DNA from: Chiloscyllium plagiosum
Taxonomy: Eukaryota
Reading direction: 5' to 3'
Assembly: GCF_004010195.1 (NCBI RefSeq)
Contig: NC_057754.1
Coordinates: 12,307,356 to 12,362,989 of the forward strand
DNA length: 55,634 nucleotides
Within the stretch, counting starts at the first letter, position 1; the number at the start of each line of letters is the position of its first letter. Both the position numbers and the translations under genes were made by a program. This document shows, in pieces, positions 1,800-52,149 of the stretch. The notes under the pieces are model-generated. The model had not been told where the DNA came from, did no database searches, and saw only the letters and a list, made by a program, of their open reading frames with translations.

Positions 1800-2830
1800 T
1801 TCAACATATTCATGTGACATAACCGATATTTTTATTTTCTATCTGGCATTTTACCAGACAGTTTACGTGACTCAACTTTTTTCTCAATTTGTTAAGACGA
1901 CTAAACCTTCATTTGGAGGGATCTCCCACCATTGTTAACAATATTAATATGTCATCTTCTCAGGAAAATGTCCGAATTTCCGAGTTTATGTCTGCCACCT
2001 GTTTCATTCTATGCTGTTCCCTCTTCAAGTGCTGTTTAGCTAACTCATTTACCAGATTTAATCTTTCCCTCAACTCCAATAGGTGTTGCCAGTGTGATAT
2101 CTCTGAGTTCAGTCCTGTCAATTTCTCCTTAACTAATTTCAAAGGCCCTTTCACTTCATGTCCAAATATTAACATTAAGGGAGTAAACTCTACTGGCAAA
2201 CAACATAAATGGGTTACTTTTATCCCAATCATGCGGATAATTCTGACAATAAGATCTCTGCATGGTCTTCAGGGTCTGATGCCACCTTTCCAAAGCTCCT
2301 TGGGAATCAACATATTAAACACTTGATTTAAAGTACTGTATACCGAAGCTAACCATGACTTGAGCATCCGGCATAACAGTAAAGTTAGAACCTTGATCTG
2401 GCTGAATGTCTCTGTGTAGCCCAAAGCACGTGAAGAAAGCTACCAACTCCTCTGACCACTAACCTCTTTTTGCCTTAATGTTCTGTAATGGAATTGCCGC
2501 CAGAAATCTAGTACACTGATCCATCATTGTTCGCAAATACTGGGTTCCCACGTTCAGTTCTCGGGAGGGGACTTACACAATCAACCATAATCAGCGTGAA
2601 AAGAAATGAAATGTGGTAGTTGGCAGCAAAGTTGCAGTTGTCATTACTGCCTGTGGCTTACCTACCATTTCACACGTATGACATCTACAGCAAAACCTAA
2701 CCACGTCCTGGTACATTCTAAGCTAATAGACATGCTTTCGTACCTTAGCCTGAGTCTTCCAAACACTGGGTGACCTCGTACTGGTAGTTCATGTCCTACC
2801 CGTAACATTTCCTGACTGTATGCTACCAGC
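1800..2830 (-). pseudogene. Integrase remnant of Gypsy copy 1
   Basis: DIQPDQGSNF at about 2381-2410; FTPLMLIFGHEVKGPLKLVKEK in ORF 1960-2232. Confidence 0.85.
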
Positions 2831-13857: not shown

Positions 13858-15695
13858 TGAAATTTGCAGGATACTGAGAAGCCTGGATAGAGTGACTTTG
13901 GTGAAGATTATTCACAAACTTTGAGATATTAGAAGCCAAGGGCACAGCCGCACAGTGAAGAAATGAGGCGAGGCGAGAAGGTTGAAATGAGGCGAGGAGG
14001 TTGTTAAGCCGCTGGCGAAGACCTTTGACTCCTCAGTCTCCACGGGAGTCATACTGGAGGATTGGAAGGATTGGAATGTTGTTCCTCTTTTCAAGAAGGG
14101 TAATAGGGAAATCCCTGGCAATTACAGACCAGTCAGTCTTCGGTCTGTGGTCACCAAAGTTTTGTAAACAATTCTGAGGGATAGGATTTATGACTATTTG
14201 GCAACGCATAGCGTGATTGAAGGCAGTCAGCATGGCTTTATGAGGGGCAGGTCATGACTCACAAATCTAATTCAGTTCTTTGAGGAGGTGAATGGACAGG
14301 TCGACAAAGATCGAGCAGTAGATGTAGTGTACATGGGCTTCAGCAAGGCATTTGATAAGGATCCTCATGGTATAACGAGATTTGGCTATCTGGATTCAGA
14401 ATTGGTTGCTTTACAGAAGGCAGAGAGTGGTTGTAGATGGAAAGTATTCTGCCTGGAGGTCAGTATTGAGTGGGGTCCCGCGGATCTCTGTTCTTTGGCC
14501 TCTGCTCTTTGTAGTTCTTATAAATGATTTGGATAAGCAGGCTCAGGGGTGGGTTAGTAAATTTGCAGATGACAAAAAGGTTGGAGGCGCCGTTGATAGT
14601 ATTGAGGGCTATTGCAGGCTGCAGCGTGACATAAGCAGGATGCAGAGCTGGGCTGAGAAATGGCAGATGGAGTTCAACCTGGATAAATACGAAGTGATGT
14701 ATTTTGGAAGGTCGAACTCGAATACTGAATAAAGGATTAAATGCAGGATTCTTGGCAGGAACAGAGTGATCTGGATGTGCAAGTACATAGATCCCTTAAA
14801 TTTGCCACCCAAATGTATAGGGTTGTTAAGAAAGCATATGGTGTTTTGGCTTTCGTGAACAGGGGAATCGAGTTTAAGAGCCGCGAGGTTTTGCTACAGA
14901 TCTACAAATCCCTGGTGAAACCACACTTGGAATATTGTGTCCAGTTCTGGTCGCCCTACTATAGGAAAGGTACAGAGGCTTTGGAAAGGGTGAAAGAAAG
15001 GTTTACCAGGATGCTGCCTGGACTGGAGGGCTTGCATTATGAAGAAAGATTGAATAAGCTTGGACTTTTCTCTCTGGAGAGAAGAAGGAAGAGAGGTGAC
15101 CTGATTAAGGTATACAGGATAATGAGAGGAATAGATAGAGTAAATAACCAGTAACTTTTCCACAGGGAAGGATTTACTGGTACAAGGGGTTATAGTTTTA
15201 AAATATTAGGGGAAAGCTATAGAGGAGACGTCAGAGATAGGTTCTTTACGCAGAGTTATGATTTCATGGAATGCATTGCCAGTGGTGATGGTGGAAGCAG
15301 AGTCATTAGGGACATTTAAGCGACTGCTGGACATGCACATAAATAGCAGTGAGTTGAGGGGTGCATAAGTTAAGTTATCATGTTTTACGTTAGGATCAAA
15401 CCTCGGCACAACACCGTGGGCCAAAGGGCCTGTTCTGTGTTGTACTTTTCTATGTTCTATGTTCTAATTACTTTTGCCACAGGGTGGTGATTCTGAGGAA
15501 TTAAATGCTGCCGAGGGCTATGAACGCTGTTTCATTGAGTGCATTTATGATGGAGATACAGAGGTGATCAATGTTTATGTGAGAATGCACAAGGCAGAAG
15601 AATGGAGTTGAAAACATGTCAGTCACTATTAAATGGAGAAGCACATTTGATAGGCCAAATGGGTAAATTTTGCTCCTATATCTTTTGGTCTTACG
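13858..15695 (+). mobile_element. Older CR1-family 3' end split by the younger HER1 copy at 13995-15466
   Basis: gaaatgaggcgag|insert|aattacttttgccacagggtggtga rejoins into a continuous CR1 3' region ending ttgctcctatatcttttggtctta. Confidence 0.6.
13995..15466 (+). mobile_element. 5'-truncated HER1/CR1 LINE
   Basis: RT ORFs 14288-15154 (YMGFSKAFDK, WVSKFADD, VKPHLEYCVQFWSP); (TTCTATG)n tail; similar to 25400-26898. Confidence 0.92.
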
Positions 15696-23824: not shown

Positions 23825-26800
23825 TTTTGTACCCGACCTTTGAACCCGCATTTTGAGTGCGAGCAGCAGCAGAGATAAGACGAACCCCGGAAGACGGCAG
23901 CTAAGGTAAGGCAGTTTTTTTTAAAATTACTTACCGGTAGCGGACTGCGGTGTTTTCCCTTTCACAGAAGGAGCGGGAGCAGCGGGGGAATTGACGAGGA
24001 CCAGAGGGGCAGCCGGGAACCTGAGATGTATACCGGAGATGAGAGTTGATGCAGATGAGGCAGTAGCAAGAGGTAGACCAGCTAGTGGGAAGGACTTTCC
24101 TGCAAGGAACCAAGGTATCAGTTAAAGTGTGTTTGCTTTAACGCAAGGAGTATCAGGAATAAAAGTGACAAACTTAGAACACGGATCAGTACCTGGTGCT
24201 ATGATTTTGTAGCCATAACAGAGACATGGGTTTCTCAGGGGCAGGAATTGTTGCTGGATGTTCCAGGGTTTAGAGCATTTATAAAGAATAGGGAGGGGGA
24301 AAGAGGAGGGGATGTAACATTACTAATCAGAGAGGGTATCACAGCTACAGAAGCTTCCATTGTCGAGGAAGATCTGCCTACCGAGTCAGTATGGGTGGAA
24401 ATTAGGAACAGCAAACATAGCTCAGCAGATTTTGGAAAAGTGTGGACTTAGTGGGGTTGTTGTAATGGGTGACTTTAACTTTCCCAATATTGATTGGAAC
24501 CTCCTTCGAGCAGAAGATTTGAATGGAGCTGTTTTTGTAAGGTGTGTTCAGGAGGGTTTCCAAACTCAGTACGTTGACAGGCCGACGAGGGGAGAGGTCA
24601 TTCTAGACTTGATGCTCGGCAATGAGCCGGGGCAGGTATCAGATCTTGTGGTGGGAGAGCATTTTGGTGATAGTGACCATAACTGCCTCACATTCTACAT
24701 GGAGAAGGAGAGGATTATGCAAATGGGAGGATATTTAATTGGAGAAGAGGAAATTATGGTGCGATTAGACATGAGTTAGGAAGCATGGATTGATACCATT
24801 TTTCCATGGTAAAGGCACTATAGACATGTGGAGACTGTTTAAGGAACAATTGTTGGAAGTGATGAATAAATACGTCCCACTGAGATAGAGAAGAAGTGGT
24901 AAGATAAATGAACCTTGGATGTTGAGAGCGGTGGAGTTTCTCGTCAAAAGGAAAAATGTTAGCTTACATAAGGTGGAGGAAGCTAGGGTCAAGCTCAGCT
25001 CTGCAGGAGTACAGGCAGGCAAGGAAGGAATTTTAAAATGGTCTGAGGAGAGCCAGGATCGGGCACGAGAAAGGCTTGGCAGAGCGAATTAGGGAGAACA
25101 CAAAGGCTTTTACACTTATGCGAGGAATAAGAGAATGGTCAAAGAAAGAGTAGGCCCGATCAGGGATAGCATAGGGAATTTATATGTGGAATCTGAGGAG
25201 GTAGGGGAATCCCTAAATGAGTTATTTGCTTCTGTCTTTACGAAAGAAACGAACGTTGTAGTGAATGAAACATTTGAAGAGCATGTCTGCATGCTGAAAT
25301 GGATAGAGATAGAGGAAGCTGATGTGCTGAAAATGTTGTCAAACATTAAGATTGACAAGTCGCCAGTCAGGCGCAGATTTGTCCTCGGCTGCTTTGGGAA
25401 ACGAGAAATGCAATTGCTTCGCCACTTGCGAAGATCTTTTCATCCTCGCTCTCCACAGGAGTCGTAACTGAGGACTGGAGAGAGACAAATGTAATTCCTC
25501 TCTTCAAGAAAGGAAATAGGGAAATCCACGGCAATTACAGACCAGTAAGTCTCACGTCTGTCGTCTGCAAGGTGTTAGAAAGGATTCTGAGGGATAGGAT
25601 TTATGACCATCTGGAAGAGCATGGCTTGATTAAATGCAGTCACCACGGCGTTGTGAGGGCCAGGTCATGCCTCACAAACCTTATCGAGTTCTTTGAGGAT
25701 GTGACTAGAAAGGTTGATGAGGGTCGAGCTATGGATGTGGTGTATATGGACTTTAGCAAGGCACTTAATATGGTTCCCCATGGTAGGCTCATTCAGAAGG
25801 CCAGGAGGAATGGGATTCAGGGGAACATAGCTGTCTGGATACAGAATTGGCTGGCCAACAGAAGACAGCGAGTGGTAGTAGAAGGAAAATATTCTGCCTG
25901 GAAGTCTGTGGTGAGTGGTGTTCCTCAGGGCTCTGTCCTTGGACCTCTATTGTTTATAATTTTTATTAATGACTTGGATGAGGGGATTGAAGGATGGGTC
26001 AGCAAGTTTGCAGATGACATATTGGCTGGAGGTGTCGTTGACAGTATAGAGGGCTGTTGTAGGCTGCAGCGCGACATTGACAGGATGCAGAGATGGGCTG
26101 AGAGGTGGCAGATGGAGTTCAACCTGGATAAATGCGAGGTGATGCATTTTGGAAGATCGAATTTGAAAGCTGACTCCAGGATTAAGGGTAGGATTCTTGG
26201 TAGTGTGGAGGAGCAGAAGGATCTTGGTGTGCAGGTACATAGATCCCTTAAAATGGCCACCCAAGTGGACAGGGTTGTTAAGAAAGCATATGATGTTTTG
26301 CCTTTCATTAACAGAGGTATTGAGTTTAAGAGTCATGAGACCTTGTTGCAGCCCTATAAAACTTTGGTTAGACCGCACTTGGAATACTGCGTCCAGTTCT
26401 GGTCGCCCTATTATAAGAAAGATGTGGATGCTTTGGAGCGGATTCAGAGAAGATTTACCAGGATGCTGCCTAGACTGGAGGGCTTATCTTATAAGGAGAG
26501 GTTGACTGAGCTCGGACTTTTTTCATTGGAGAAAAGGAGGAGAAGAGGGGACCTTATGGAGGTATACAAGGTAATGAGAGGCATAGATAGAGTCGATAGC
26601 CAGAGACTATTTCCCAGGGCAGAAATGACTAACACGAGGGGTCATAGTTTTAAGCTGGTTGGAGGAGAGTAGAGAGGGGATGTCAGAGGCGGGTACTTTA
26701 CACAGAGAGTTATGAGAGCATGGAATGCGTTGCCAGCAGCAGTTGTGGAGGCAGGGTCATTGGTGATATTTAAGAGACTCCTCGACATACATATGGTCAC

Positions 26801-29819: not shown

Positions 29820-31175
29820 CATGGAGAAGGTGAATGTTGTCTCCCCTCTGCATACTGAGAGGTGAGACGATCGTTCGACCCCAGTCTCAAAATGAGCGTT
29901 ACTGAAAGCTCTCCCATCATGTGAATATGTTGATGATACATCAGTTCCAGAGAACATCGATGTGACTTCCCACAGAGTAGGCATTTGAAAGATTTCTTCT
30001 CACGCTGATTGTAAAATACTCCTCATTTAAAAGGTGTCTCCTCAGTTTGAATGTGTTGATGGAAGTTCAGTTCCACAGAATTCCTAAAGTACTTCCCAGA
30101 GTCTGAGCATTTGAAGAGTGTTTCCACCGTGTGAACACATTGATGGGACTTCAGTTCCACAGAATTCCTAAATCACTATCAACAAGCTGAATACATGAAA
30201 GGTCTCTACTCAGTGTGAACATGTTGAAAACATATGAGTCCCCAGAAACTTGTGTAGTACTTGACACATTCCGGGCATTTGAAAGAGCTCTCTGCAGTGT
30301 GAACTTGCTGGTGTCTCAGCAGCTGGTCGACGGAGCGAATTCCCTCCCTCAATCGGAGCAGCTAAATAGTCTTTTCTGCGTGTGAACCTGCTGGTGCGTC
30401 ATGAGGTCAGATGATTGCCTACACCCAGTCACAGAGAGAGAGAGCACCTGAACGCTCTCTCCTCAGAGTGAATAAGATGGTGGGATATCAGGTCCCTTAA
30501 CGTTTTGTAGCATTCCAAGCAGGCTGGGCATTTAAGAGTTGTCTCATTAGCGAGAGCAAGTTGAAAGGACAACGGGTCCCTGCAAATTTTATAACACGTT
30601 CCACAGTTGGGCATTTAAAAGGTGCCTTCTCCGTGTGAGCACTTTAATGGACATCGGTTCCCTAGATCTTTTATAGTATTTTCTGCAGTCCGGGCATTTA
30701 AAAGTGTCTCATTAGTATGAGCGTGTTGATGGAACGTCAAGTGCCAGAGGATTTAAAAAAGTTCCTATCGTCTCAGCATTGAAGTGGTCTCTCCTCAGTC
30801 TGAACAAACTGGTGTTGCAACAGGTTAGATGACTGAGTGAATGCCTTCCGAAATACGGAGCAGGTGAATGGACTGCCACGTGTGCCAATGCATCAATGAG
30901 CATCCAGCTCAAATGGGCAAATGAATTCTTCTCCATAATCCTTACATTTCCAGAGTTTGTCCCGAGTTGACAGCATTTATGATTTGTAATCTCTGATGAT
31001 TGGTGAAACCTTGCCCACAAACACAACACGTGTATGATTTCTCTCTCACAGTGAACGGGGCTTTTTTTTTCCCTTCCGTGTTCAAAGGTTGATTACAGTT
31101 CATTTAGAATAAAATGGGCGACTCCATCAAATCGTGGAGTTATGTTTGGTTTGTAAATATTCTTCTTTTGATATC
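29820..31175 (-). pseudogene. Multi-finger C2H2 zinc-finger pseudogene exon (about 14-16 degenerate fingers)
   Basis: About 84-bp periodic F-K-C-x2-C-G-K...H-Q-x-V-H-T-x-E-R-P units; ORF 30429-30614 CPACLECYKTLRDLISHHLIHSEERAFRC; splice acceptor ttttgacaataatttaacag| at 31176; stops and frameshifts. Confidence 0.85.
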
Positions 31176-34109: not shown

Positions 34110-34404
34110 TGGATATCAGTGATTAGCACGACTGTCTCACAGCACCAGCGGCCCAAGTTTGATTCCAGCTTTGGGCGACTGTCTGTGTGGAGTTTCCATG
34201 TTCTCCTGTGTCTGCATGGGTTTATTCCGAGTGCTCAGGTTTCCTCTCACAGTCCAAACATTTGCAAGTTAAGTGGACTGGCAAATTCCCCATAGTGTTC
34301 AGAGACATGTGGGATAGGTCAGCTAGCCATGGGAAATGCAGGGTGACAGGGAGAGGGTAGGGGAATGAGGATGAATCTGGCTTGGATACAATTTGGAGGG
34401 TTAG
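34110..34404 (+). mobile_element. HE1-related SINE, 3'-truncated at the ERV LTR
   Basis: gattagcacgactgtctcacagcaccag...tgtgtggagttt...; the tail is missing at the LTR junction. Confidence 0.75.
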
Positions 34405-35003
34405 TGTCGGAGAAATTTGCCCAATAGGTTAGAGATCTCAAAACACAGCTCGAGGTGAAATTGGCAAACAGTTTATTGCAAGTGATATCACTGGAGGAGA
34501 AAACAGACTAGCTGACACAGAACTGACAATCTGCACAGAGAATTTGATTTCTCCTCCCAGAGCTGAGGATGAGACCAGTTTTATAGTAATGCTACATAAT
34601 GACACTGACTAAGAAATGGGAGAATACACTGTTTCTGAAAATGGAGTAATTTCGTTCCATGTGTGCTAATTGGAAAACAGTTTATCAGATGAATGTTATG
34701 TTCCTTCACACAATGCAACATTCTGACAGTATCATGGTTCCATTCATCTTCCCAGGTAGGGGTTAACTGCTTTTCTGGAGTGGTGAGGTGCTTCCATTGG
34801 CCTGTGGTGCCTATCTATCTGTCCTAATCTTTGTGTGGCATTGCTGCTGCTGGGTTGTGGATATGCTCTGAGGGCCTTGAGCCTCTGTCATGTCCATGGG
34901 AGTTTGAAAGCGTATTCTATTGTCTGCGTATCGTCTGACCCAGTTCATGAGCTGGTACAATTTGGCCAAATTGCTTTTGTGGGTTAGCACATCTTTTCCA
35001 ACA
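34405..35003 (-). repeat. ERV 3' LTR (599 bp)
   Basis: Inverted termini TGTTGGA...TCCGACA on minus; TATAAAA at 34579-34585; AATAAA at 34472-34477; preceded by a PPT. Confidence 0.88.
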
Positions 35004-35020
35004 ATTCCCCTTTTTTTTGC
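35004..35020 (-). promoter_or_regulatory. Polypurine tract of the ERV
   Basis: GCAAAAAAAAGGGGAAT directly before the LTR TG. Confidence 0.85.
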
Positions 35021-35149
35021 TTAGGGGAGGGACGAGAAGAGGTCAATGTAGCCAGAACCAGGAGGATTATCGAGTGGAGGGGGGTCTCCATATCGGACAG
35101 GTTGCTCTCAATGTCAGAGTCAGGCCCAGCAGAGGCTATCCCGGCGCAG

Positions 35150-36230
35150 GGCTATTCTCCCAGTGGATCTGTGCTAACTGAGTGGTGAGGGGGGCAGAGG
35201 GTAACATGATTGCACATTGGCATGAGCAGCAAATCGGATGGCCATGGTTAGCACTATAAGGCTGGCAATAATAGCAATAAGGGCTATCAGTCCCTGCAGT
35301 AGGGCTGTGCCCCATGTCCCCAGCTAAGAGGCTACCCAGTCCCGTAGGTCCCAACGGGCGTTCTGATCATGCAGGACAGAAGCTGCCTGTCGGATATGTT
35401 TGGCCAGGTCTTTGCTGCTTTCACTGGGGTCAGGAATGTAAGTGCGGCAGTTAGCACCAATAATGGCACATGTGCCTGTTTTCGCAGCGAACAGGTAGTC
35501 TAGGGCCATCATGTTCTGCAGAGCCATTGTTCGGATGGCAACATCCTCCACATTCAGCTGGGCGAGTGCGTCTGCTATGGAGTTTGCCATCTCCTCTCAT
35601 GTGGCTGCGAGTTTGTTGGCTTCTGCCTGTAATTGTAGGGTTGCAGAGTGGGGTGACATCAACTAGAGAGCTGCTTTTTCAATGGCAGCAAGGGCTCGTC
35701 TGCTGCGGGTCATGAGTTTTGGGAAGGGAGGGGACTGGGAGTGATAAATGAATATTTCAGCGTACCTGTCATAACAGCTCTCGGTCCAGGATACCAGCAA
35801 CCAGGGGTAGGCTTTGTGGCCATAGATAAAATAGGTGCCGTTGTAGGTCCGGAGATGACGGGTCTGGGTCTAGCCACCACTCTGCCATGTCAGAGATGCT
35901 TAAGGGGATGAGGCTAAGGGAATGCCCCCGTGAGAGTGGACAGGGACCCAAGTGCAGACCCAGCAGCGGGTCTGATTAAATCGCTGGGCATTTTAAAAAA
36001 GGTGTTGGCCCGTAAGTCACGGCGAGTTATGAAATGTGCTGACCCTTGTCCCTTTTTACCAGCACGCCACAGTGTATTAGTCAGTCAGATCATGCCGAGG
36101 GTGCTGATGGTGATGGCTATCGTGAGCAGTTGTATCCATCCTCGGTGGTCAGAGTGGTGTCTTCCTCTGTGTGGTCCGTGGTCATTGGTTGTGGAGCCCT
36201 CTTGCAGCGAGTAGCATGTGTCCATTTGGG
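35150..36230 (-). pseudogene. env: Gamma-type env remnant (signal peptide, shortened SU, TM)
   Basis: Hydrophobic WIQLLTIAITISTLGMI; NQTRCWVC (CXXC); NGTYFIYGHKAYPW; furin site RSRR/AL at about 35695-35707; ISD LQNMMALDYLFA; CAIIGANCR (CX6CC with the last C lost); TM anchor GLIALIAIIASLIVL. Confidence 0.9.
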
Positions 36231-36696
36231 CCGTCCTTCCAGTTTCACAACAGTCCGGGTTGTCTTTAGGATCAGGTAGGGGCCTTTCCACCTACGGGAG
36301 AAAGAATCTTTTTCTAGTGATTTGATCATGACATAGTCCCTGGGTCGGAACGGATGAATGGGCACTGATTGGGGTGTGGGTAACGCGGCCTTGATATGGT
36401 CGTGAGTAGTACTAATGCTCCTGCTGGTGGAATTAGGACACCCTCCTGTCAATCACCAGTTTGATGCCTTCTGCTGCTGCCAGGGATAGTGGGTATTGTC
36501 GTATAGATAGCAGGACGGCTCCTTGTTTCAGTGTGACAATTTGTGATTGGGCAGACTTCACTTGGCCTGCGTGGTCAAGGTGTTGCGCCCACAGTGAGGT
36601 CGGGAGGTCTGCTAGCAATAGGGTGTTCTCGTAGGAGGAGGCAGTGTCGGTGGTTAGCTTGGTGAAATTGGCCCGAGCGTTGCAGGAGCACAGCAC
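36117..36696 (-). pseudogene. pol: pol remnant: RT N-terminus abutting the integrase C-terminus
   Basis: LWAQHLDHAGQVKSA...LKQGA..SIRQYPLSLAAAEGIK (36433-36696), then PFRPRDYVMIK...RWKGPYLILKTT..VKLEGRPKWTHATRCK (36117-36452). Confidence 0.88.
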
Positions 36697-36789
36697 ACAC
36701 AGAACGCCTTCTGCTCAAGTTGGGCAATCTCTACTAGAGGGGTGGGGGTTTGACTGAGAGGTGCGAAGCGGAGGGGGCGCCTCTTTAGT

Positions 36790-37592
36790 CACACCATCAT
36801 GTGGCCGAAATCATTAGGGAACCCCAGGTTCTTAGCAATGAGGGGAATGTATGAAACAGCCATCGGGCAGTTGCAGAACAGTGCAGCCTGTTGCTTGCCG
36901 AGCTGTACCTCTGTTGCTACTCCCTGTGGTCCCACAAAGTACAGGCCAGTGAATGCTAGCGGGGAGGGGAGGGCGAGATGAGGGTCCGCGAGTGCAGCAT
37001 ACGCTGATGTTGGTTCCTGTGGGCCGGAAGCTGGACAGTGGAACTGACAGACAATGTGGCCTGTGAATATAACCCAGCAGAGGAAAGATAAAGTGGGGGG
37101 ATGAAGGGGCCGTTGATAACAGTGAAAGGAGGGGTTCAAGAAGAGTAGGAGTAGGGGTCTCCACAGTTGGGGTTTTATTGCTGCGGTCTTCTGGTGGTGT
37201 TTGGCAATGTCCCGAAATTTTGAAAGACATTGCAACATGTAGACAGTGTCCCATGAGGGATCCCCGTGCCCCCTGTAATGGCCGTGGTCCAGTAATCAAT
37301 TTCATCAATTTTGAAGGACCCCCGATATGGCCAGTTTCCATGGGACTAGGTGCAAAGGTTCCTTGTGAAGGGGATAACGTAACGGCTGTCCCCTGTCTTT
37401 CTGCACAGTGTCTGCCGGTGACCCAGGTGTAACAAGAGCATCTCCTACGTTGTTCTTGCAGTCAACGTATTTACCATGCGGTTTCAGGGTACTCTTGTTC
37501 ATTTTCCCTCGGCCGTTCTCACCACGTGGTTGGGGTTGCGCAGCTCCCACAGCTGGCATCTCCCGGCAGACAGTGGATGTCCATGCCCCCAT
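36790..37592 (-). pseudogene. gag: Probable gag 5' remnant (matrix plus Pro-rich region)
   Basis: gccATGg start giving MGAWTS (MGxxxS); TPGSPADTVQK; a shifted frame gives NWPYRGSFKIDEIDYW (about 37290-37335), like the gammaretroviral MA WPxxGS/TF motif; no capsid motif seen. Confidence 0.55.
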
Positions 37593-37634
37593 GGCCTCCT
37601 GGACGTCTTGGGATGATTTGTCAGTGCTGTAGTA

Positions 37635-37710
37635 GGGTTCGAAGGGTAAAAAAAGAGATAGAGAGCTAACAGGGGTTCGAAGGGTAAAAAAAGAGATAGA
37701 GAGCTAACAG
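37635..37710 (+). repeat. 38-bp tandem duplication forming the polypyrimidine tract of a minus-strand splice acceptor
   Basis: gggttcgaagggtaaaaaaagagatagagagctaacag present twice; on minus it is followed by tactacAG| at 37627. Confidence 0.85.
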
Positions 37711-38179
37711 AACACAGTCAGTGAGTGATTGACAGGCTAGGCAATAAAAGTTACTCAAGCGTGTAATCGCTGACCACAAAGTAAACAAACACTTCCACGC
37801 TGAACAAATACAGCCAAATGGGGCATCTGAAATTGACAAAGCAGCACTCAGTAAGCGCAGAACAAGCAGACACATCGAAACAAACACTTAGAAACCACAG
37901 GACAGGACAACACAGCTGGGCCCAAGTCAATTTGTTCCAGTTACGGATCTATCAGTAGTAAAGCGAGAATTTGATGAGCGGTCTCTCAACGTATTGTGCC
38001 TAGCTTTCTCTGCCCGACCGTCTTTCTCCTGGCGAGAGCAGGTTCTTGGCAGTAGTTCTGACTCAAGGTGAATCGCGCGTGGGACAAATTAAGGTTTGTT
38101 GTAAAATTTCAGGTAATTAATTTAGCACAGGTGACGACTTCCACAAGCCGAGACAACGTTGTTTAGTACCGAATTACCG

Positions 38180-38460
38180 ACTGCCAGTTAACTTACTTTC
38201 CCACCAGACGACCTCCTCAGGCCCAGACGTAGCAGCTTAAAAGTCAGTTAACAATTTAGGAGCCACATGCTCAACTCCACAGGCCAGAGTCATTACTCAT
38301 ATTCCAAATTGTAGCAGCAGCCGGCTGCCAGTTAGTTAAATTTGAAAATTAATTTAGTTGCTTACCAGACTACCTCCTCGGGCCAAGTTCCGGCAGCAAT
38401 TTAGGAGCCAAATGCTCACCTCCCCAGTTCAGGGTCATTACTCAATTTCAGAATTAGAGT
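38180..38460 (+). repeat. Imperfect ~140-bp direct duplication in the ERV leader
   Basis: ctgccagtta...accagac.acctcctc.ggcc...caatttaggagcca.atgctca...gtcattactca present twice. Confidence 0.75.
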
Positions 38461-38639
38461 AGGTGAAGCCAATTTTACAAAGGCACTTAGGTTTATGATA
38501 GTTCAGGCAAGGTCGATAAAGAGCACCTAGTCCAATTAACGGACAATAAAAGTACTAGAGACTCAGATTTTTAGGAATTGGGCAAGAGTTAATGCAAGAA
38601 TGCAGAATTCATTTTATGTTCCTATTATTTTACTCAATA

Positions 38640-38900
38640 CTGACATTCAAAGGCCAATGAAATCCAGTGCTGAATGAATATTGAATAAATTGACTCTAAG
38701 CAATCTTTTTCTGTTTATTGGTTTGATTTTCCCATCTGTAAATCGTCTTCGTACATGCTGTATACCAAGTTTACAAACGTCGTCTGTCAGTTTGGGATAG
38801 AAATTGAGAATAATCAAAATACTTCTGTCATTTGGAGTTTCTGTGTGTAATTCGACCCGTCCTCCCTCCCTGTAAAAGGAGTTTACAAGCCTCAACCCTA
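38640..38900 (-). other. Probable 5' exon(s) of a ZNF gene
   Basis: acag-ending acceptor-like sites and spaced motifs (gatttaca...aaaccaa...gagtc...cctttgaa) resemble the ZNF exon start at 31175-31080. Confidence 0.45.
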
Positions 38901-38929
38901 TCAGTCCAGGAGAGACATTCACAACGTTC

Positions 38930-39290
38930 TCGGCCCGAGAACAGGATTACTGCACATGCGCCCTGCTGCCCTTTGCACCAACAAAGATAGCGACCGTTCC
39001 GCAAGACCTGTTATTGAGAGGGAGCCTCGAGTGACCACGTTTGTGAAGGGGGGAGTGGTAATTCCTTTATACTGGATCTATCGCATCCACATAGCCACCC
39101 AATCTATTGTCTCTTCTCTCCACTGCAATTTTGTCTTTTGTGGAGCTGAGGAAACGAGGGACAGCTGCTCAGGAACGCTTCGGCTGTGCAGGCACAAAGT
39201 TGTGGGCATGAGCGGATAATGCGCATGCGCAGTGATAAGAAATTTTGCACAGTCGGGGACACTGAGCAGCGCCCAGAATTCTGGGTTAAT
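38930..39290. promoter_or_regulatory. Putative promoter with NRF1 motifs
   Basis: Perfect palindrome TGCGCATGCGCA at 39220-39231 and a variant TGCACATGCGC at 38951-38961, in a locally CpG-richer stretch I could not assign to a repeat. Confidence 0.55.
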
Positions 39291-39504
39291 CTGGCCACTT
39301 TGTAGATTTTGATTTTTTTCTTGTTTTTGTGAGTACAAACAATCTCTCTATTTATGTCCCCAAGGACAACTAACATGTACAATACATAGAATAGAGAATG
39401 AACATTTCCTTGTGTGACCCAGCGTTAAAATAAAGTCTGACACTGAACGACCCTTTAAAGGCTAAAGACACAGGTCATACTCGTTCTGAACCATATAGCT
39501 TTCT

Positions 39505-39750
39505 TCATAAAATCCCTGCAGTGTGGAAACAGGCCATTCTGCTGAGTCGGTCCACACAGAACGCTTGTAAAGCCTTACACTAAGACCCATTCCCCACTCT
39601 ATCCCTGTAGAGTCCCATTTCATCCCTGAAAAATATGGGCAGTTCAGCATGACCAATCCAACCAACTTGTATATGTTTGGACTATGGAAGAAAACTGGAG
39701 CAGCCACCGACAATTCGTGCAGACACTGGGAGAATGTGCAAACTCCAAAT
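39505..39750 (-). mobile_element. HE1-type SINE, 5'-truncated
   Basis: aatccctgcagtgtggaaacaggccattc...ggagaatgtgcaaactcc. Confidence 0.75.
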
Positions 39751-40559
39751 AGTTAAAAAGTGACAACTGGTGGTGGTTTAACATGAGGTACACCATATCC
39801 CTTATGATGGAAAGCTGAATAAGGAAGTCATTAGCGGTAACTTCAAATGGTCTGAGATTTAAACACAAACTCTTGGTATCATGACAAAACTGGTAAATGG
39901 CTCCAAGAAAGAGTTTGGCTTTCAGAACTGTTTTAAAGGAGGAATATGTAGAATTCCTGTTCCAGCAAACACTGTTGTTTCCCGTCATTGTTTGAAAGAG
40001 TTAGTTTCATTCCCTTGAAACCTTCAAGACATTAAATAGCTCATTAGATAAGCACTTGAAGTTTCAGAGCACACCAGGCAAAGCATTAGAAATTGGTCTC
40101 AGAAGTGAGATGTTAGATGACTGATGCTGATCTAATGGGCTGGAGGTCCTCTCTTCATGCTGTTAAAACCACAGTGAGTCTATCATTTTGCAACTTAACA
40201 TAAAGTAAAAAACAGCGTCAAGAAGGAAAGTTGCAAGTATTGCATGAGGCTTCCTCAATGTTTCGTAGCTGGAATTCAGTCAACTGCCATTTGCTGGGGT
40301 GATTTCGAATCAGGGAATGAGGATTGTTTATTCCTTACAAAATGCTAAAATGAACATGAAGTCCTGACACTAAAATAAGCAAACAGTACACGTCTATCAG
40401 AGACAGTGAGAGTTTCACTTAGGAAATGGAAGAAAATGAGAAGAAGCACTGATAGATACCGCCTTTAAATGTAAAGTCACAATACGACAAAAAAAACTTG
40501 CTCCTTATTCAACCTTACAGGGTTTCTTTTTGTCCACTTAACTATTCGAATGCACAACG

Positions 40560-48872: not shown

Positions 48873-50094
48873 TCATTCCAAATACGTCATCTGGATGTCG
48901 TAAACATGTCCCTCTGGATTCCCTCCAACAACTTGCCTACTACTGACATGAAGCTCACTGGAATAGATCCCTGGTTGGTCCTTACTCGCTTTCCTACGTA
49001 GTAGCACCACGTCGGCTGACCTCCTCTCTTCCAGCACCTCACCTGTGACTATCAATGATACAAATATCTCAGCAAGACGCCCAGCAATCACTTCTCTAGC
49101 TTCTCACAGCGTTTAAACTTACACCTGATCAGGTCCTGAGGACATCCACATTTATGCATTTCAAGACCTCCAGCATTTTCTCCTCGATAATATGAACATT
49201 TTGCAAGATGTCAGCATCTATTTCACTATATCATCCATGTCCTTCTCCACAGTAAATACTGATGGAAAATATTCGTTTAGTATATCCCCTACCTCCTGCT
49301 GATCCACACCTCGGCCGTCTTGCTGATGTTTGAAAGATACTCAACTCTTCCTAGTTACCGTTTTGTCCTTAATGTATTTGTAAAACCACTTTGGTTTCTC
49401 CTTAACCCTGTTTGCCAAAGCTATCTCATATCCCCTTTTTGTCCTCCTCATTTCCCTCTTAAGTATACTCCTACTGTCTCTTGTAAGAATTCATTTGATC
49501 TACCGTGTCTATACCTGACATATGCTTTCTTCTATTTTTTAACTAAGCCCTCAATTTCTCTGATCAGCCAGCATTCACTACACACACCAGCCTTTTCTTT
49601 CACCCAAACATGAATATACTTTCTCTGGACTCTCGTTATCTCACTTCTGAAGGCATCCCATTTTCCAGTCGTCCCTTCACCTGTGAGCTTCTGCCCCAAT
49701 CAGCTTTTGAGAGTTCTTGCCAAACACCATCAAATGTAGAAATTCAAACTTTCACATCACTATTTTAAAACTAATAGAATTATGGACGCTTGCCCCAATG
49801 TGCTCCCCTGTCACCTCCTTCTTATTTCCGAAGAGTAGGTCAAGTTTTGCTCCTTCTCTCGTAGGTTCATCTACGTACTGAATCCGAAAATTTTCCTGTA
49901 CATACTTAACAAATTGCTCTCCATCTAAACCGTTAACACTAAGGCAGTCCCAGTCTATGCTTGGAAAGATAAAATCACCTACTGTTAAAACCCTATTATT
50001 CTTACAGGTGACTGAAATCTGCTTACAAACTCGTTTCTCAATTTCCCGCTGACTATTAGGGGGTCAACGATACAATCCCAATAATATGATCATT

Positions 50095-51109
50095 ACATAG
50101 AACATACAACAATACAGCACAGAACAGGCCATTCGGCCCACGATGTTGTGCCGAGCATTTGTCCTAGCTTAAGCACCTATCCATGTACCTATCCAATTGC
50201 CGCTTAAAGGTCACCAATGATTCTGACTCTGCCACTCCCACAGGCAGCGCATTCCATGCCCCCACCACTCTCCAAGTCACCCCTCAACCTTCACCGTTCC
50301 AATGAGAAAAGACCTAGCACACACAACCTATCCTTGTACGACCTATTCTCCATTCCAGGCAACATCCTGGTAAATCTCCTCTGCACCCTCTCCAAAACTT
50401 CCACATCTTTCCTAAAGTGAGGCGACCAAAACTGCACACAGTACACCAAATGTGGCCTTACCATGGTCCTGTACAGCTGCAACATCACCTCACGACTCTT
50501 GAATTCAATCCCTCTGCTAATGAACGCTAATACACCATAGGCCTTCTTACAAGCTCTGTTCACCTGAGTGACAACATTCAAAGAGCTATGAACATATACC
50601 CCAAGATCCCTCTGCTCCTCCACCTTACTAAGAACCCTAGTGTTAACCCTGTATTCCGCATTCTTATTTGTCCTTCCAAAATGGACAACCTCACACTTGA
50701 CGGGGTTGAACTCCATCCGCCACTCCTCAGCCCAGCTCTGCATCATATCTGAGTCTCTTTGCAGCCGACAACAGCCCTCCTCACTATCCACAATTCCACC
50801 AATCTTCATATCGTCTGCAAATTTACTGACCCACCCTTCGATTCCCTCTTCCAAGTCATTAATAAATATTACAAACAGCAGAGGACCCAGAACTGATTCC
50901 TGCGGAACTTCACTTGTAACTGGTCTCCAGGCTGAATATTTACCATCTACCATCACTCTCTGACTTTGACCGGTTAGCCAGTTCTCTATCCAACTGGCCA
51001 AATTTCCCACTATCCAATGCCTCCTGACTTTCCACATAAGCCTACCATGGGGAACCTTATCAAATGCCTTGCTAAAATCCATGTACATTACATCAACTAC
51101 TCTACCCTC
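50095..51109 (-). mobile_element. Younger 5'-truncated HER1/CR1 LINE nested in the endonuclease region of the older CR1
   Basis: RT ORF 50291-51142 (YMDFSKAFDKVPH, FADD); TSD ATCATT at 50089-50094 and 51110-51115. Confidence 0.88.
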
Positions 51110-52149
51110 ATCATTCTTTTCTCTTTTCTCAGTTCCACCCAAATATGTTCCCTGCGTGTATTTCTGTGAATATCCTCTCTCAGCACAACTGTCACGCTAT
51201 CCTTTATCAAAAACGCCACTCTCCCACCTCTCTTGCCTCCCTTTCTGTCTTTCCTGCAGCATTTTCATCCCGGAACATTAAGCTGCCAGTCCTGTCCATC
51301 CCTGATCCATGTTTCTGTAATTGCTTTGACACCCGAATCCCATGTTCTTAACCATGCCCTGAGATCATCTGCCTTTCCTGTTAGGCCTCTTACATTGAAA
51401 TAAATGCAGTTAATTTTTTCAGTCCTACGTTGTACTCTGCTTTGTCCGTGCCTGCCCTTAACTGTTTGACTCCATTCTTTTCTCAACTGTACCAGTTTCA
51501 GATTAATCTCTTTCCCCACTAGTTCCCTGGGTCCCACCTTACCAGTTTCAATCATCCCGAGCAGATCGTGTAAATCTCCCTGCCAGTATACTCGTCCCCT
51601 TGCAATTCTGGTGTAATCCATCTTTCTTGAACAGGTCGCTTCTACCCCAGAAGAGATTCCAACGATCCAAAACTGTGAATCCTTCTCCCACACATCAGCT
51701 CCTTAGCCACATATTCATCTGCACTATCCTCCTATTCCTACCCTCACTAGCTAGTAGCACTGAGAGTAATCCAACTACCCTCGAGACGTCCTTTTAAAAT
51801 TCCTGCCTAACTATCTATATTCTCCCTTCAGAATCTCATCCTTTTGCCTTCCTATGTCGTTCGTTTCCATCTGTACAAACACCTCCTGCTGCTCCCTCTC
51901 CCTTTTGAGAATATTCTGCACCCTCTCTGAGACATCCTTGATCCTGGCAGCAGGGAGCCAACACACCATTCTACTTTTTTCGCTACTGGCCGCAGAAACG
52001 CCTGTCTGAGCATCTGATTAGAGTCCCCTAACACAAGGGATGCAAGATAGCGCTTGATATGGTCGACTCCCTGCGTGCAGATCTCAATTCCCTATTTCCT
52101 ATAATCGTTCTACAATCTTTGAACTGAATACCATACTTTCAAAAAATAC

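What the first reader, a model, noticed from the sequence alone, without database searches (positions are those of the whole stretch)
34405..38600. Miniaturised shark endogenous retrovirus keeping only the ends of its genes
Seen: gag MA/Pro-rich start, about 60 codons of RT N-terminus joined to the IN C-terminus near 36445, a shortened env of about 1.1 kb that keeps signal peptide, CWVC, furin site, ISD and TM, then PPT and LTR. Capsid, protease, RT core, RNase H and IN core are not visible. Established: CXXC/ISD/CX6CC env and a GPY/F integrase mark class I retroviruses; chondrichthyan ERVs are less studied. Inference: possibly an undescribed lineage, and possibly a non-autonomous derivative spread in this reduced form.
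Basis: partly seen in the sequence, partly recalled or inferred. Interest (0 to 1): 0.72.

Follow-up and report, generated by a model that had tools for sequence, protein, structure and literature searches.

The report
Gutted copy of shark retrovirus family
This is a dead, one-ended and heavily deleted copy of an old retrovirus family in shark genomes, and most of its relatives also seem to lack the copying enzyme gene, so the family probably spread by borrowing that enzyme, a known trick not yet found described for sharks.

Summary
The element is real: a minus-strand class I endogenous retrovirus remnant, 34405 to about 38490. It has one LTR, a PPT, an env lacking roughly 85-130 SU codons, and an integrase C-terminus joined to about 57 RT N-terminal codons at ~36445. 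The gag start rests on motifs only. The 5' LTR and PBS are gone, so this copy is dead.

Contigs from three species cover leader, gag-5', IN tail and env at a median 11-21 times flank depth, but the RT remnant at only 0.9-2.0 times. The 36445 joint is therefore probably not amplified, and close full-length parents look rare. Other copies carry different deletions.

Best reading: an old family spread largely as pol-less derivatives complemented in trans, like ETn, recKoRV or bovine D-type ERVK, with this locus one variant. The tool warns that depth dips can be filter artefacts, and no genome was available, so this is suggestive only. Env's nearest relative is a Chiloscyllium punctatum PABLB-like env. 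Four sequence look-ups found no earlier report of it in this scan. New member of a known kind.

The parts
34117..34404 (+). Host SINE cut off by the LTR end; its 3' tail is not found to the right of the element
   Evidence: blastn to other SINE copies in the window at 75-79%; no plus-strand tail match in 34405-40500
34405..35003 (-). Single (3') LTR, 599 bp, TG...CA, TATAA 34585, AATAAA 34477, short U5
   Evidence: 30/31/35 contigs end at 34405 with unlike flanks; 12 RNA reads of related LTRs carry poly(T) ends before 34466
35004..35020 (-). Polypurine tract
   Evidence: 15 of 17 purines directly before the LTR
35022..35869 (-). env, 3' part: SU C-terminus (NGTYF at 35842), furin site RSRR 35707-35696, ISD 35521-35471, degenerate CX6CC 35470-35444, TM ~35305-35237, tail of uncertain end; several stops
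   Evidence: TLV_coat E=3e-5; collinear with relatives at 35-49% identity; syncytin-1 TM E=1.6e-5
35870..36225 (-). env, 5' part: candidate ATG 36225, hydrophobic signal-like stretch 36138-36088, CWVC 35965-35954; deletion joint at ~35870; frame shifts near 35990 and 35910-35925
   Evidence: tblastn of relatives in two frames up to ~35870; signal peptide by eye
36117..36445 (-). Integrase C-terminal domain (RWKGPY), overlapping the env start; begins at the pol deletion joint
   Evidence: MLVIN_C E=8.8e-11; 2M9U E=2.4e-7; aligns with IN tails in L001/L002 only from about ORF residue 14 onward
36446..36615 (-). Reverse transcriptase N-terminus, ~57 codons, ending at the joint to the IN tail; near single-copy in three species
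   Evidence: MMLV RT 17-71, E=0.22-0.63; depth 2.0/0.9/1.3x flank in bin 36501-36667
36616..36960 (-). Probable pre-RT pol remnant: linker plus a stretch (~36790-36960) that resembles, from recall, the second half of the CNPase-like 2H domain of fish ERVs, without an intact His motif; unconfirmed
   Evidence: position and recalled resemblance only; no hit in PDB, Pfam, NCBIfam or ESM Atlas; model unusable, pLDDT 44
36961..37592 (-). Probable gag 5' part (MA-like and Pro-rich), frameshifted; joint to the pol remnant placed only roughly at ~36960-37000
   Evidence: GCCATGG start, MGAWTS, 95 open codons; no family hit; multi-copy
37593..38490 (-). Leader (5' UTR), 5'-truncated: no PBS and no 5' LTR; holds a perfect 38-nt tandem duplication (37635-37710) and a 66-nt repeat pair (38252/38397)
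   Evidence: depth falls from 8.5-14x to 1.3-1.7x between bins 38338-38504 and 38505-38671

Best explanation
A dead, 5'-truncated copy of an old, multi-copy class I (epsilon-like; PABLB/ERV3-type env) ERV family of sharks. Most copies appear to keep leader, gag-5', integrase tail, env and LTR but not the RT region, so the family probably multiplied mostly as pol-less derivatives. Their RNA keeps the cis signals (LTR, leader/gag-5' packaging region, IN-tail/env 3' region, PPT) and would be packaged, reverse-transcribed and integrated by proteins of a rarer or more distant helper. Deletions would arise by template jumps during reverse transcription, and later in the chromosome. This copy kept an unusually long pol-5' remnant, inserted into a SINE, and lost its 5' LTR, PBS and the SINE tail before organisms A and B split. 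SHOWN: anatomy, env and pol deletions, one LTR, many insertion sites, probable ortholog in B. INFERRED: family-wide lack of RT (from depth only), trans-complementation, deletion mechanism, gag and CNPase-like identity.
For: Depth over flank in 19 of 21 internal bins: median 21x/11x/18x, minimum 11.9x/4.8x/7.3x. The two bins set apart, covering the RT remnant and linker, are 2.0/0.9/1.3x and 6.7/1.5/5.7x. The dip is the same in three species, over a frame that is open for 93 codons, so local decay of this copy is an unlikely cause. 30/31/35 contigs leave the LTR end into unlike flanks. Other copies carry other internal deletions, one seen in both A and C (35193 to ~36000; 2.0x and 1.2x) and some at more than one copy (35734-36340 at 4.7x in C; 35200-35319 at 10.6x in A). 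Contigs of B cross the flank/leader boundary and the gag/pol-remnant region at 4.3-5.6% divergence. The retained parts match the pattern reported for bovine D-type ERVK, ETn and recKoRV (PMC10924933, passages).
Against: The lay tool states that summed contig depth is no copy number and that a dip can come from its human-DNA filter. Copies are mostly 85-95% alike, close to the 85% cut-off, so depth swings about 5-6x between ordinary bins. Only 15 of 128 joints, 24 of 913 loose ends and 24 of 4915 pieces were displayed, none at 36445 or 35870, so no junction was seen directly in another copy. No full-length parent or helper was found (all empty, all weak searches). Many different breakpoints also fit ordinary decay.
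Confidence: 0.5

Rival explanations
1. Ordinary decay. The family spread as complete proviruses, and each copy, this one included, lost pieces on its own afterwards; the RT dip is a filter or threshold artefact.
For: This copy also has a private-looking 5' truncation and a perfect 38-nt duplication. The displayed joints have many different breakpoints, most at about one copy's depth. The tool warns about dips.
Against: RT is normally the best-conserved part (general knowledge), yet it is the only coding bin at about 1x in all three species. Three separate internal deletions that each spare leader, gag start, IN tail and env ends are many for one locus. One deletion is shared by A and C, and two lie at 4.7x and 10.6x depth.
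Confidence: 0.27
2. One reading: this exact miniature (gag-5', RT N-terminus joined to IN tail at 36445, short env) was the master and was amplified as such.
For: Leader, gag-5', IN tail and env are all multi-copy. Both sides of the SU joint are multi-copy (10-31x at 35908), so the SU deletion could be shared.
Against: The RT side of the 36445 joint is at 0.9-2.0x flank depth in all three species, where a master would give the same depth as its neighbours. Contigs show other, incompatible deletions.
Confidence: 0.1
3. Recombinant. The central piece (36446 to ~36960) was swapped in from another ERV lineage, as in recKoRV or bovine D-type elements, so the joints are recombination points, not deletions.
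For: The central piece has its own lower depth. Swapped central segments are the reported pattern in recKoRV, ETn and D-type ERVK (PMC10924933, passages).
Against: Gene order (pre-RT pol, RT N-terminus, IN tail) is what a simple deletion leaves. Depth falls gradually from 8-13x (36835-37001) to 1.5-6.7x to about 1x, more like nested breakpoints. G+C is 0.52-0.57 across all coding parts.
Confidence: 0.13

Closest known systems
PABLB-like / ERV3-like env of chondrichthyan class I ERVs, nearest XP_072421847.1 of Chiloscyllium punctatum (P0003)
   Same: 49% identity over 173 residues and sister branch with 99/93 support in a 55-row tree; CWVC, NGTYF, ISD and TM layout shared with envs from Heterodontus, Scyliorhinus, Pristis, Pristiophorus and Hemitrygon
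   Different: This copy lacks about 85 residues of SU present in P0003 and about 125-130 present in P0002, and is broken by stops and frame shifts
Non-autonomous ERV derivatives: bovine ERVK[2-1-LTR] D-type, mouse ETn/MusD, IAP I-delta-1, koala recKoRV (PMC10924933, passages read)
   Same: Keep LTRs with portions of gag and env (or gag and pol) and lack a working pol; defective copies can outnumber competent ones (85% against 15% in cattle)
   Different: Those are mammalian and recent, with an identified helper; D-type, ETn and recKoRV have a swapped central segment. Here the family is old (copies mostly 85-95% alike), no helper is identified, and non-autonomy rests on depth
CmiERV lineages II/III of elephant shark (Han 2015, PMC4422223, section 2 part 1 of 2 read)
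   Same: Chondrichthyan ERVs grouping with epsilonretroviruses; old insertions
Fish epsilon-like ERVs with a CNPase-like domain (Basta et al. 2009, seen only as cited in PMC4977317; scan note e1-7858212)
   Same: A stretch just before the RT N-terminus resembles the second half of that domain (recall)
   Different: Only half a domain, degenerate, and no tool confirmed it

Membership tests
Class I ERV (gamma/epsilon-like) | Gamma-type env: CXXC in SU, ISD and CX6CC in TM | tested here: met
   CWVC and ISD present, TLV_coat E=3e-5, syncytin-1 E=1.6e-5; CX6CC degenerate here (third Cys absent) but present in relatives
Class I ERV (gamma/epsilon-like) | MLV-type integrase C-terminal domain | tested here: met
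   MLVIN_C E=8.8e-11; 2M9U E=2.4e-7
Class I ERV (gamma/epsilon-like) | RT phylogeny grouping with gamma/epsilon retroviruses | tested here: inconclusive
   RT core absent; the N-terminal remnant hits only MLV-type RTs, at E=0.22-0.63; no tree possible
Epsilon-like ERV (WDSV/ZFERV/CmiERV II-III group) | Placement with epsilonretroviruses in a Pol tree | not testable with these tools
   No reference Pol sequences could be fetched; the env tree had no named epsilon or gamma reference
Provirus (intact integration unit) | Two LTRs, PBS and target-site duplication | tested here: not met
   One LTR only in the 55.6 kb window; no PBS behind an LTR end; TSD cannot be read
Non-autonomous ERV family | No coding capacity for RT/IN in this copy | tested here: met
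   RT N-terminus abuts the IN tail at ~36445; no RVT_1, RNase H or rve match in the element
Non-autonomous ERV family | Many independent insertions | tested here: met
   30/31/35 contigs with unlike flanks at the LTR end; internal depth median 11-21x. The LTR count may include related LTR families
Non-autonomous ERV family | Same deletion shared by several full-length copies at different loci (at least five gap-free copies without ORFs in the criterion of PMC10089650) | tested here: inconclusive
   Depth suggests a general lack of RT but argues against recurrence of the 36445 joint; no junction-spanning contig from another locus was displayed; no genome held
Non-autonomous ERV family | An autonomous partner sharing LTR and cis elements | tested here: inconclusive
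   None found in weak searches
A named Repbase/Dfam shark ERV family | High nucleotide identity to a library consensus | not testable with these tools
CNPase-bearing fish ERV | 2H phosphoesterase domain between protease and RT | tested here: inconclusive
   No hit; model pLDDT 44; resemblance is recalled

The most novel reading that the evidence does not exclude
An old ERV family shared by at least three shark species was amplified almost wholly as RT-less, env-retaining derivatives with nested pol deletions and almost no close full-length parent left. It would be invisible to RT-based ERV surveys and would be the first non-autonomous ERV family I could find described for cartilaginous fish. 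This locus would preserve a rare, less-deleted intermediate that shows the parent's pre-RT region, possibly with a CNPase-like domain.
Probability: 0.4. Interest if true: 0.42.

Novelty: new member of a known kind. Interest (0 to 1): 0.27.

Why it matters
Published shark ERV surveys key on Pol (Han 2015 required Pol plus Env), so a family that is mostly pol-less would be undercounted. If the depth pattern holds, it extends the 'parasite of a parasite' pattern of mammalian ERVs to cartilaginous fish and shows which cis regions an epsilon-like genome needs. If it does not hold, this is an ordinary fossil. The locus itself has no plausible function: env is broken and the 5' LTR is lost.

Tried and rejected
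No genome is held, so the genome-wide BLAST could not be run.

All three word-index protein searches were empty: RT piece, longer; env, near; IN piece, longer. They are weak, since the index-free search found 625 env relatives at E<=0.001. Four scans of viral contigs found nothing. The metagenome scan gave 2 loci from 70 candidate stretches; both have uninterrupted SU regions, no DNA similarity to the window, and served only to place the IN joint.

ESM Atlas gave no usable hit twice. The gag piece against PDB gave only chance phospholipase-type hits. The CNPase-like idea got no support from PDB, Pfam or NCBIfam; its single-sequence model was too poor for a fold search, so none was run. Rfam, ARAGORN and the bacterial promoter scan gave nothing relevant.

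No RNA holder was listed. In the one RNA run laid (about 2% read), 53 reads fitted and none was 95% or more alike, so this says nothing on expression of this locus. A LINE-made retrocopy was rejected: the LTR ends in a full U5 with CA, without poly(A). A second LTR displaced by an insertion was rejected within the window.

Eight paper searches listed no description of this family; most subscription papers and all supplements were unseen, and supplements of ERV surveys may hold it. Four sequence look-ups and one of two word look-ups in the scan's own findings were empty.
Full report
1. What is there. The element lies on the minus strand. An LTR of 599 bp runs 35003 to 34405, with TG...CA ends, terminal 7-mers inverted at 6 of 7, TATAA at 34585 and AATAAA at 34477. 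A tract with 15 purines in 17 precedes it. blastn finds no second LTR in the 55,634-base window, also with word size 6 (best E=0.33). The LTR cuts a SINE at 34404, and that SINE's tail is not found on the other side. No genome is held for this window.

2. env. Read with X at its 5 stops, 35989-35180 matches Pfam TLV_coat (E=3e-5) and shows CWVC, NGTYF, RSRR, an ISD-like stretch, a CX6CC lacking its third Cys, and a TM segment. An index-free search found 625 relatives at E<=0.001, of which 150 were listed. I looked up names for 20: 15 carry one, 9 from sharks or rays and 6 from bony fish, coelacanth or alligator, most often 'PABLB member 1 Env-like'. In a tree of 55 rows (54 of the top 60 hits kept for covering at least 140 residues, plus the query) the sister is XP_072421847.1 of Chiloscyllium punctatum, support 99/93. 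The CWVC-to-TYF spacing is 43 residues here and 118-195 in the 12 of 16 aligned relatives that hold CWVC; the joint is at ~35870. From there to the TM the sequence is collinear with relatives. Intact relatives are 404-525 aa, so about three quarters of env remains.

3. pol. 36452-36120 matches MLVIN_C (E=8.8e-11) and the MLV integrase CTD (E=2.4e-7), and aligns with the IN tails of two metagenome loci only from about residue 14. Directly upstream, about 57 codons align to MMLV RT 17-71. This is weak alone (E=0.22-0.63), but 10 of 13 hits are MLV-type RTs at their N-terminus. The RT-N/IN-C joint at ~36445 is thus real; by MLV's scale (recalled) about 2.5 kb are missing. No RT core, RNase H, IN core, protease or capsid match appeared in the element.

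4. gag and the middle. A GCCATGG start at 37592 gives MGAWTS and 95 open codons; the MGxxxS myristoylation motif and the likeness of a downstream WPYRGSF to class I matrix are recalled, and no library confirms gag. A scan note on this genome (e1-7858212) reports a CNPase-like domain between protease and RT in another ERV, and PMC4977317 (passages) mentions such domains in fish ERVs. From recall, ~36960-36790 resembles the second half of that domain. PDB, Pfam, NCBIfam and the Atlas gave no hit and the model was unusable. It stays a lead. If right, the pol remnant is ~515 nt and the gag/pol joint lies at ~36960-37000.

5. Is it a family? 20 of 24 listed runs hold part of the stretch, in three coded organisms, at most 43% of the sampled words. 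I laid 4 of the 24 on 34330-39330 at 85% likeness: contigs of A, B, C and one RNA run of A. Relative to the last four flank bins, 19 of 21 internal bins lie at a median 21x, 11x and 18x (minimum 11.9x, 4.8x, 7.3x). The two bins set apart are 36668-36834 at 6.7/1.5/5.7x and 36501-36667, the RT remnant, at 2.0/0.9/1.3x. 30, 31 and 35 contigs leave the LTR end at 34405 into unlike flanks. Multi-copy depth stops by 38504, so the element ends near 38490, inside its leader. In A, three contigs differ from the window by 0.3-0.5%. In B, a contig crosses the leader/flank boundary at 4.6% and two internal ones are at 4.3-5.6%, which fits an ortholog. In C the flank contig aligns only from 38491, with 159 letters unplaced, so orthology there is open. 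Other displayed contigs differ by 9-15%, that is, other copies. Their deletions differ from ours: 35193 to ~36000 in both A and C, 35734-36340 at 4.7x in C, 35200-35319 at 10.6x in A, 36267-37453 in C.

6. What this does and does not show. If the 36445 joint had been amplified, its RT side would be as deep as its neighbours. If many full-length parents existed within 15% divergence, the RT side would be deep too. Both predictions fail in all three species, which leaves a family mostly lacking RT, with this locus as a less-deleted variant. The caveats are serious. The tool says summed contig depth is no copy number and that dips can come from its human-DNA filter; copies sit near the likeness cut-off; and only 15 of 128 joints, 24 of 913 loose ends and 24 of 4915 pieces were shown, none at 36445 or 35870. 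Whether the SU deletion is shared is undecided: both sides are multi-copy. All searches for a parent were empty and weak.

7. Mechanism. Defective ERVs can multiply by complementation in trans (PMC3769647, PMC10435555; passages). Bovine D-type ERVK, ETn and recKoRV keep LTRs plus portions of gag and env or pol, and D-type makes up 85% of its clade (PMC10924933; passages). The parts at high depth here are those same regions. I infer spread by a helper's Gag-Pol, then decay. This copy cannot be mobilised now, having lost 5' LTR and PBS. In the RNA run, 12 of 53 laid reads have poly(T) ends before 34466, just past the AATAAA; none of the 53 is 95% alike, so they come from related LTRs, not this locus.

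8. Comparison and novelty. It works like a known class, non-autonomous ERV derivatives; membership is only partly shown (a stricter criterion of five gap-free copies is given in PMC10089650, passages; non-autonomous elements are reported among zebrafish ERVs in PMC8672886, passages). Class I membership is met on env and IN. Epsilon placement and identity with a library family could not be tested. Han 2015 (PMC4422223, outline and section 2 part 1 of 2) describes three elephant-shark lineages found through Pol plus Env. Eight paper searches (listings) showed no description of this family; supplements were not read and may bear on this. Two other scan notes describe an amplified ERV-like element in this genome (e1-8025832) and a deleted foamy-like family in another genome (e1-7805515); neither was checked.

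9. Verdict. Observation partly confirmed, interpretation partly supported. New member of a known kind; interest 0.27, about 0.42 if the family proves to be almost wholly RT-less.

Noticed in passing
window 34497-34830 versus 34831-34997: The promoter/R/U5 side of the LTR lies at 50-345x flank depth but the far U3 part at only 13-33x: the LTR looks modular, its 3' half shared with a far more abundant LTR family.
   Followed up: no
window 34455-34480: 12 single-cell RNA reads from related LTRs (none 95% alike) carry poly(T) ends before 34466, just past the AATAAA at 34477: some related LTR seems to be used as a poly(A) site.
   Followed up: partly
window 35193 to ~36000: A deletion removing nearly all of env between the CWVC region and the TM end appears in contigs of both organism A (2.0x) and C (1.2x): a shared locus or a recurrent form.
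   Followed up: partly
window 37635-37710: Perfect 38-nt tandem duplication just upstream of the gag start; contigs of all three species show joints skipping 54-55 letters here, so it is probably recent and local.
   Followed up: partly
window 38252-38317 and 38397-38462: A 66-nt repeat pair (80% alike, spacing 145) in the ERV leader, possibly part of a packaging region.
   Followed up: no
window 30000-30900 (minus strand): Degenerate C2H2 zinc-finger array with 84-nt spacing, broken by stops and frame shifts.
   Followed up: partly
window 38850-39260: Single-copy, CpG-richer stretch (CpG o/e 0.67 over 38500-39330) with the window's only GCGCATGCGC at 39221; it may be a promoter, perhaps of the zinc-finger gene, which would put the ERV in its intron in the same sense (inference).
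   Followed up: no
window 1963-2268 (minus strand): Pfam calls it Stn1 (E=2.8e-5), but the translation looks from recall like a gypsy-type integrase tail; probably a false family hit.
   Followed up: partly
window 24086-26669, 49755-51196, 14376-15151: LINE remnants with endonuclease and RT matches, including a 438-codon open RT frame at 25356-26669; CR1-like by recall.
   Followed up: no
window 38491-39053, organism C contig (record 6): The flank contig has 159 letters before 38491 that were not placed on the window: an empty site, a retained 5' LTR or a different deletion in that species.
   Followed up: no
L001 1-2344 and L002 1-1617: Two metagenome contigs hold an IN tail followed by class I env sequence; L001's env is a complete 531-aa frame equal to P0027. 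Probably host ERV DNA in a metagenome.
   Followed up: partly
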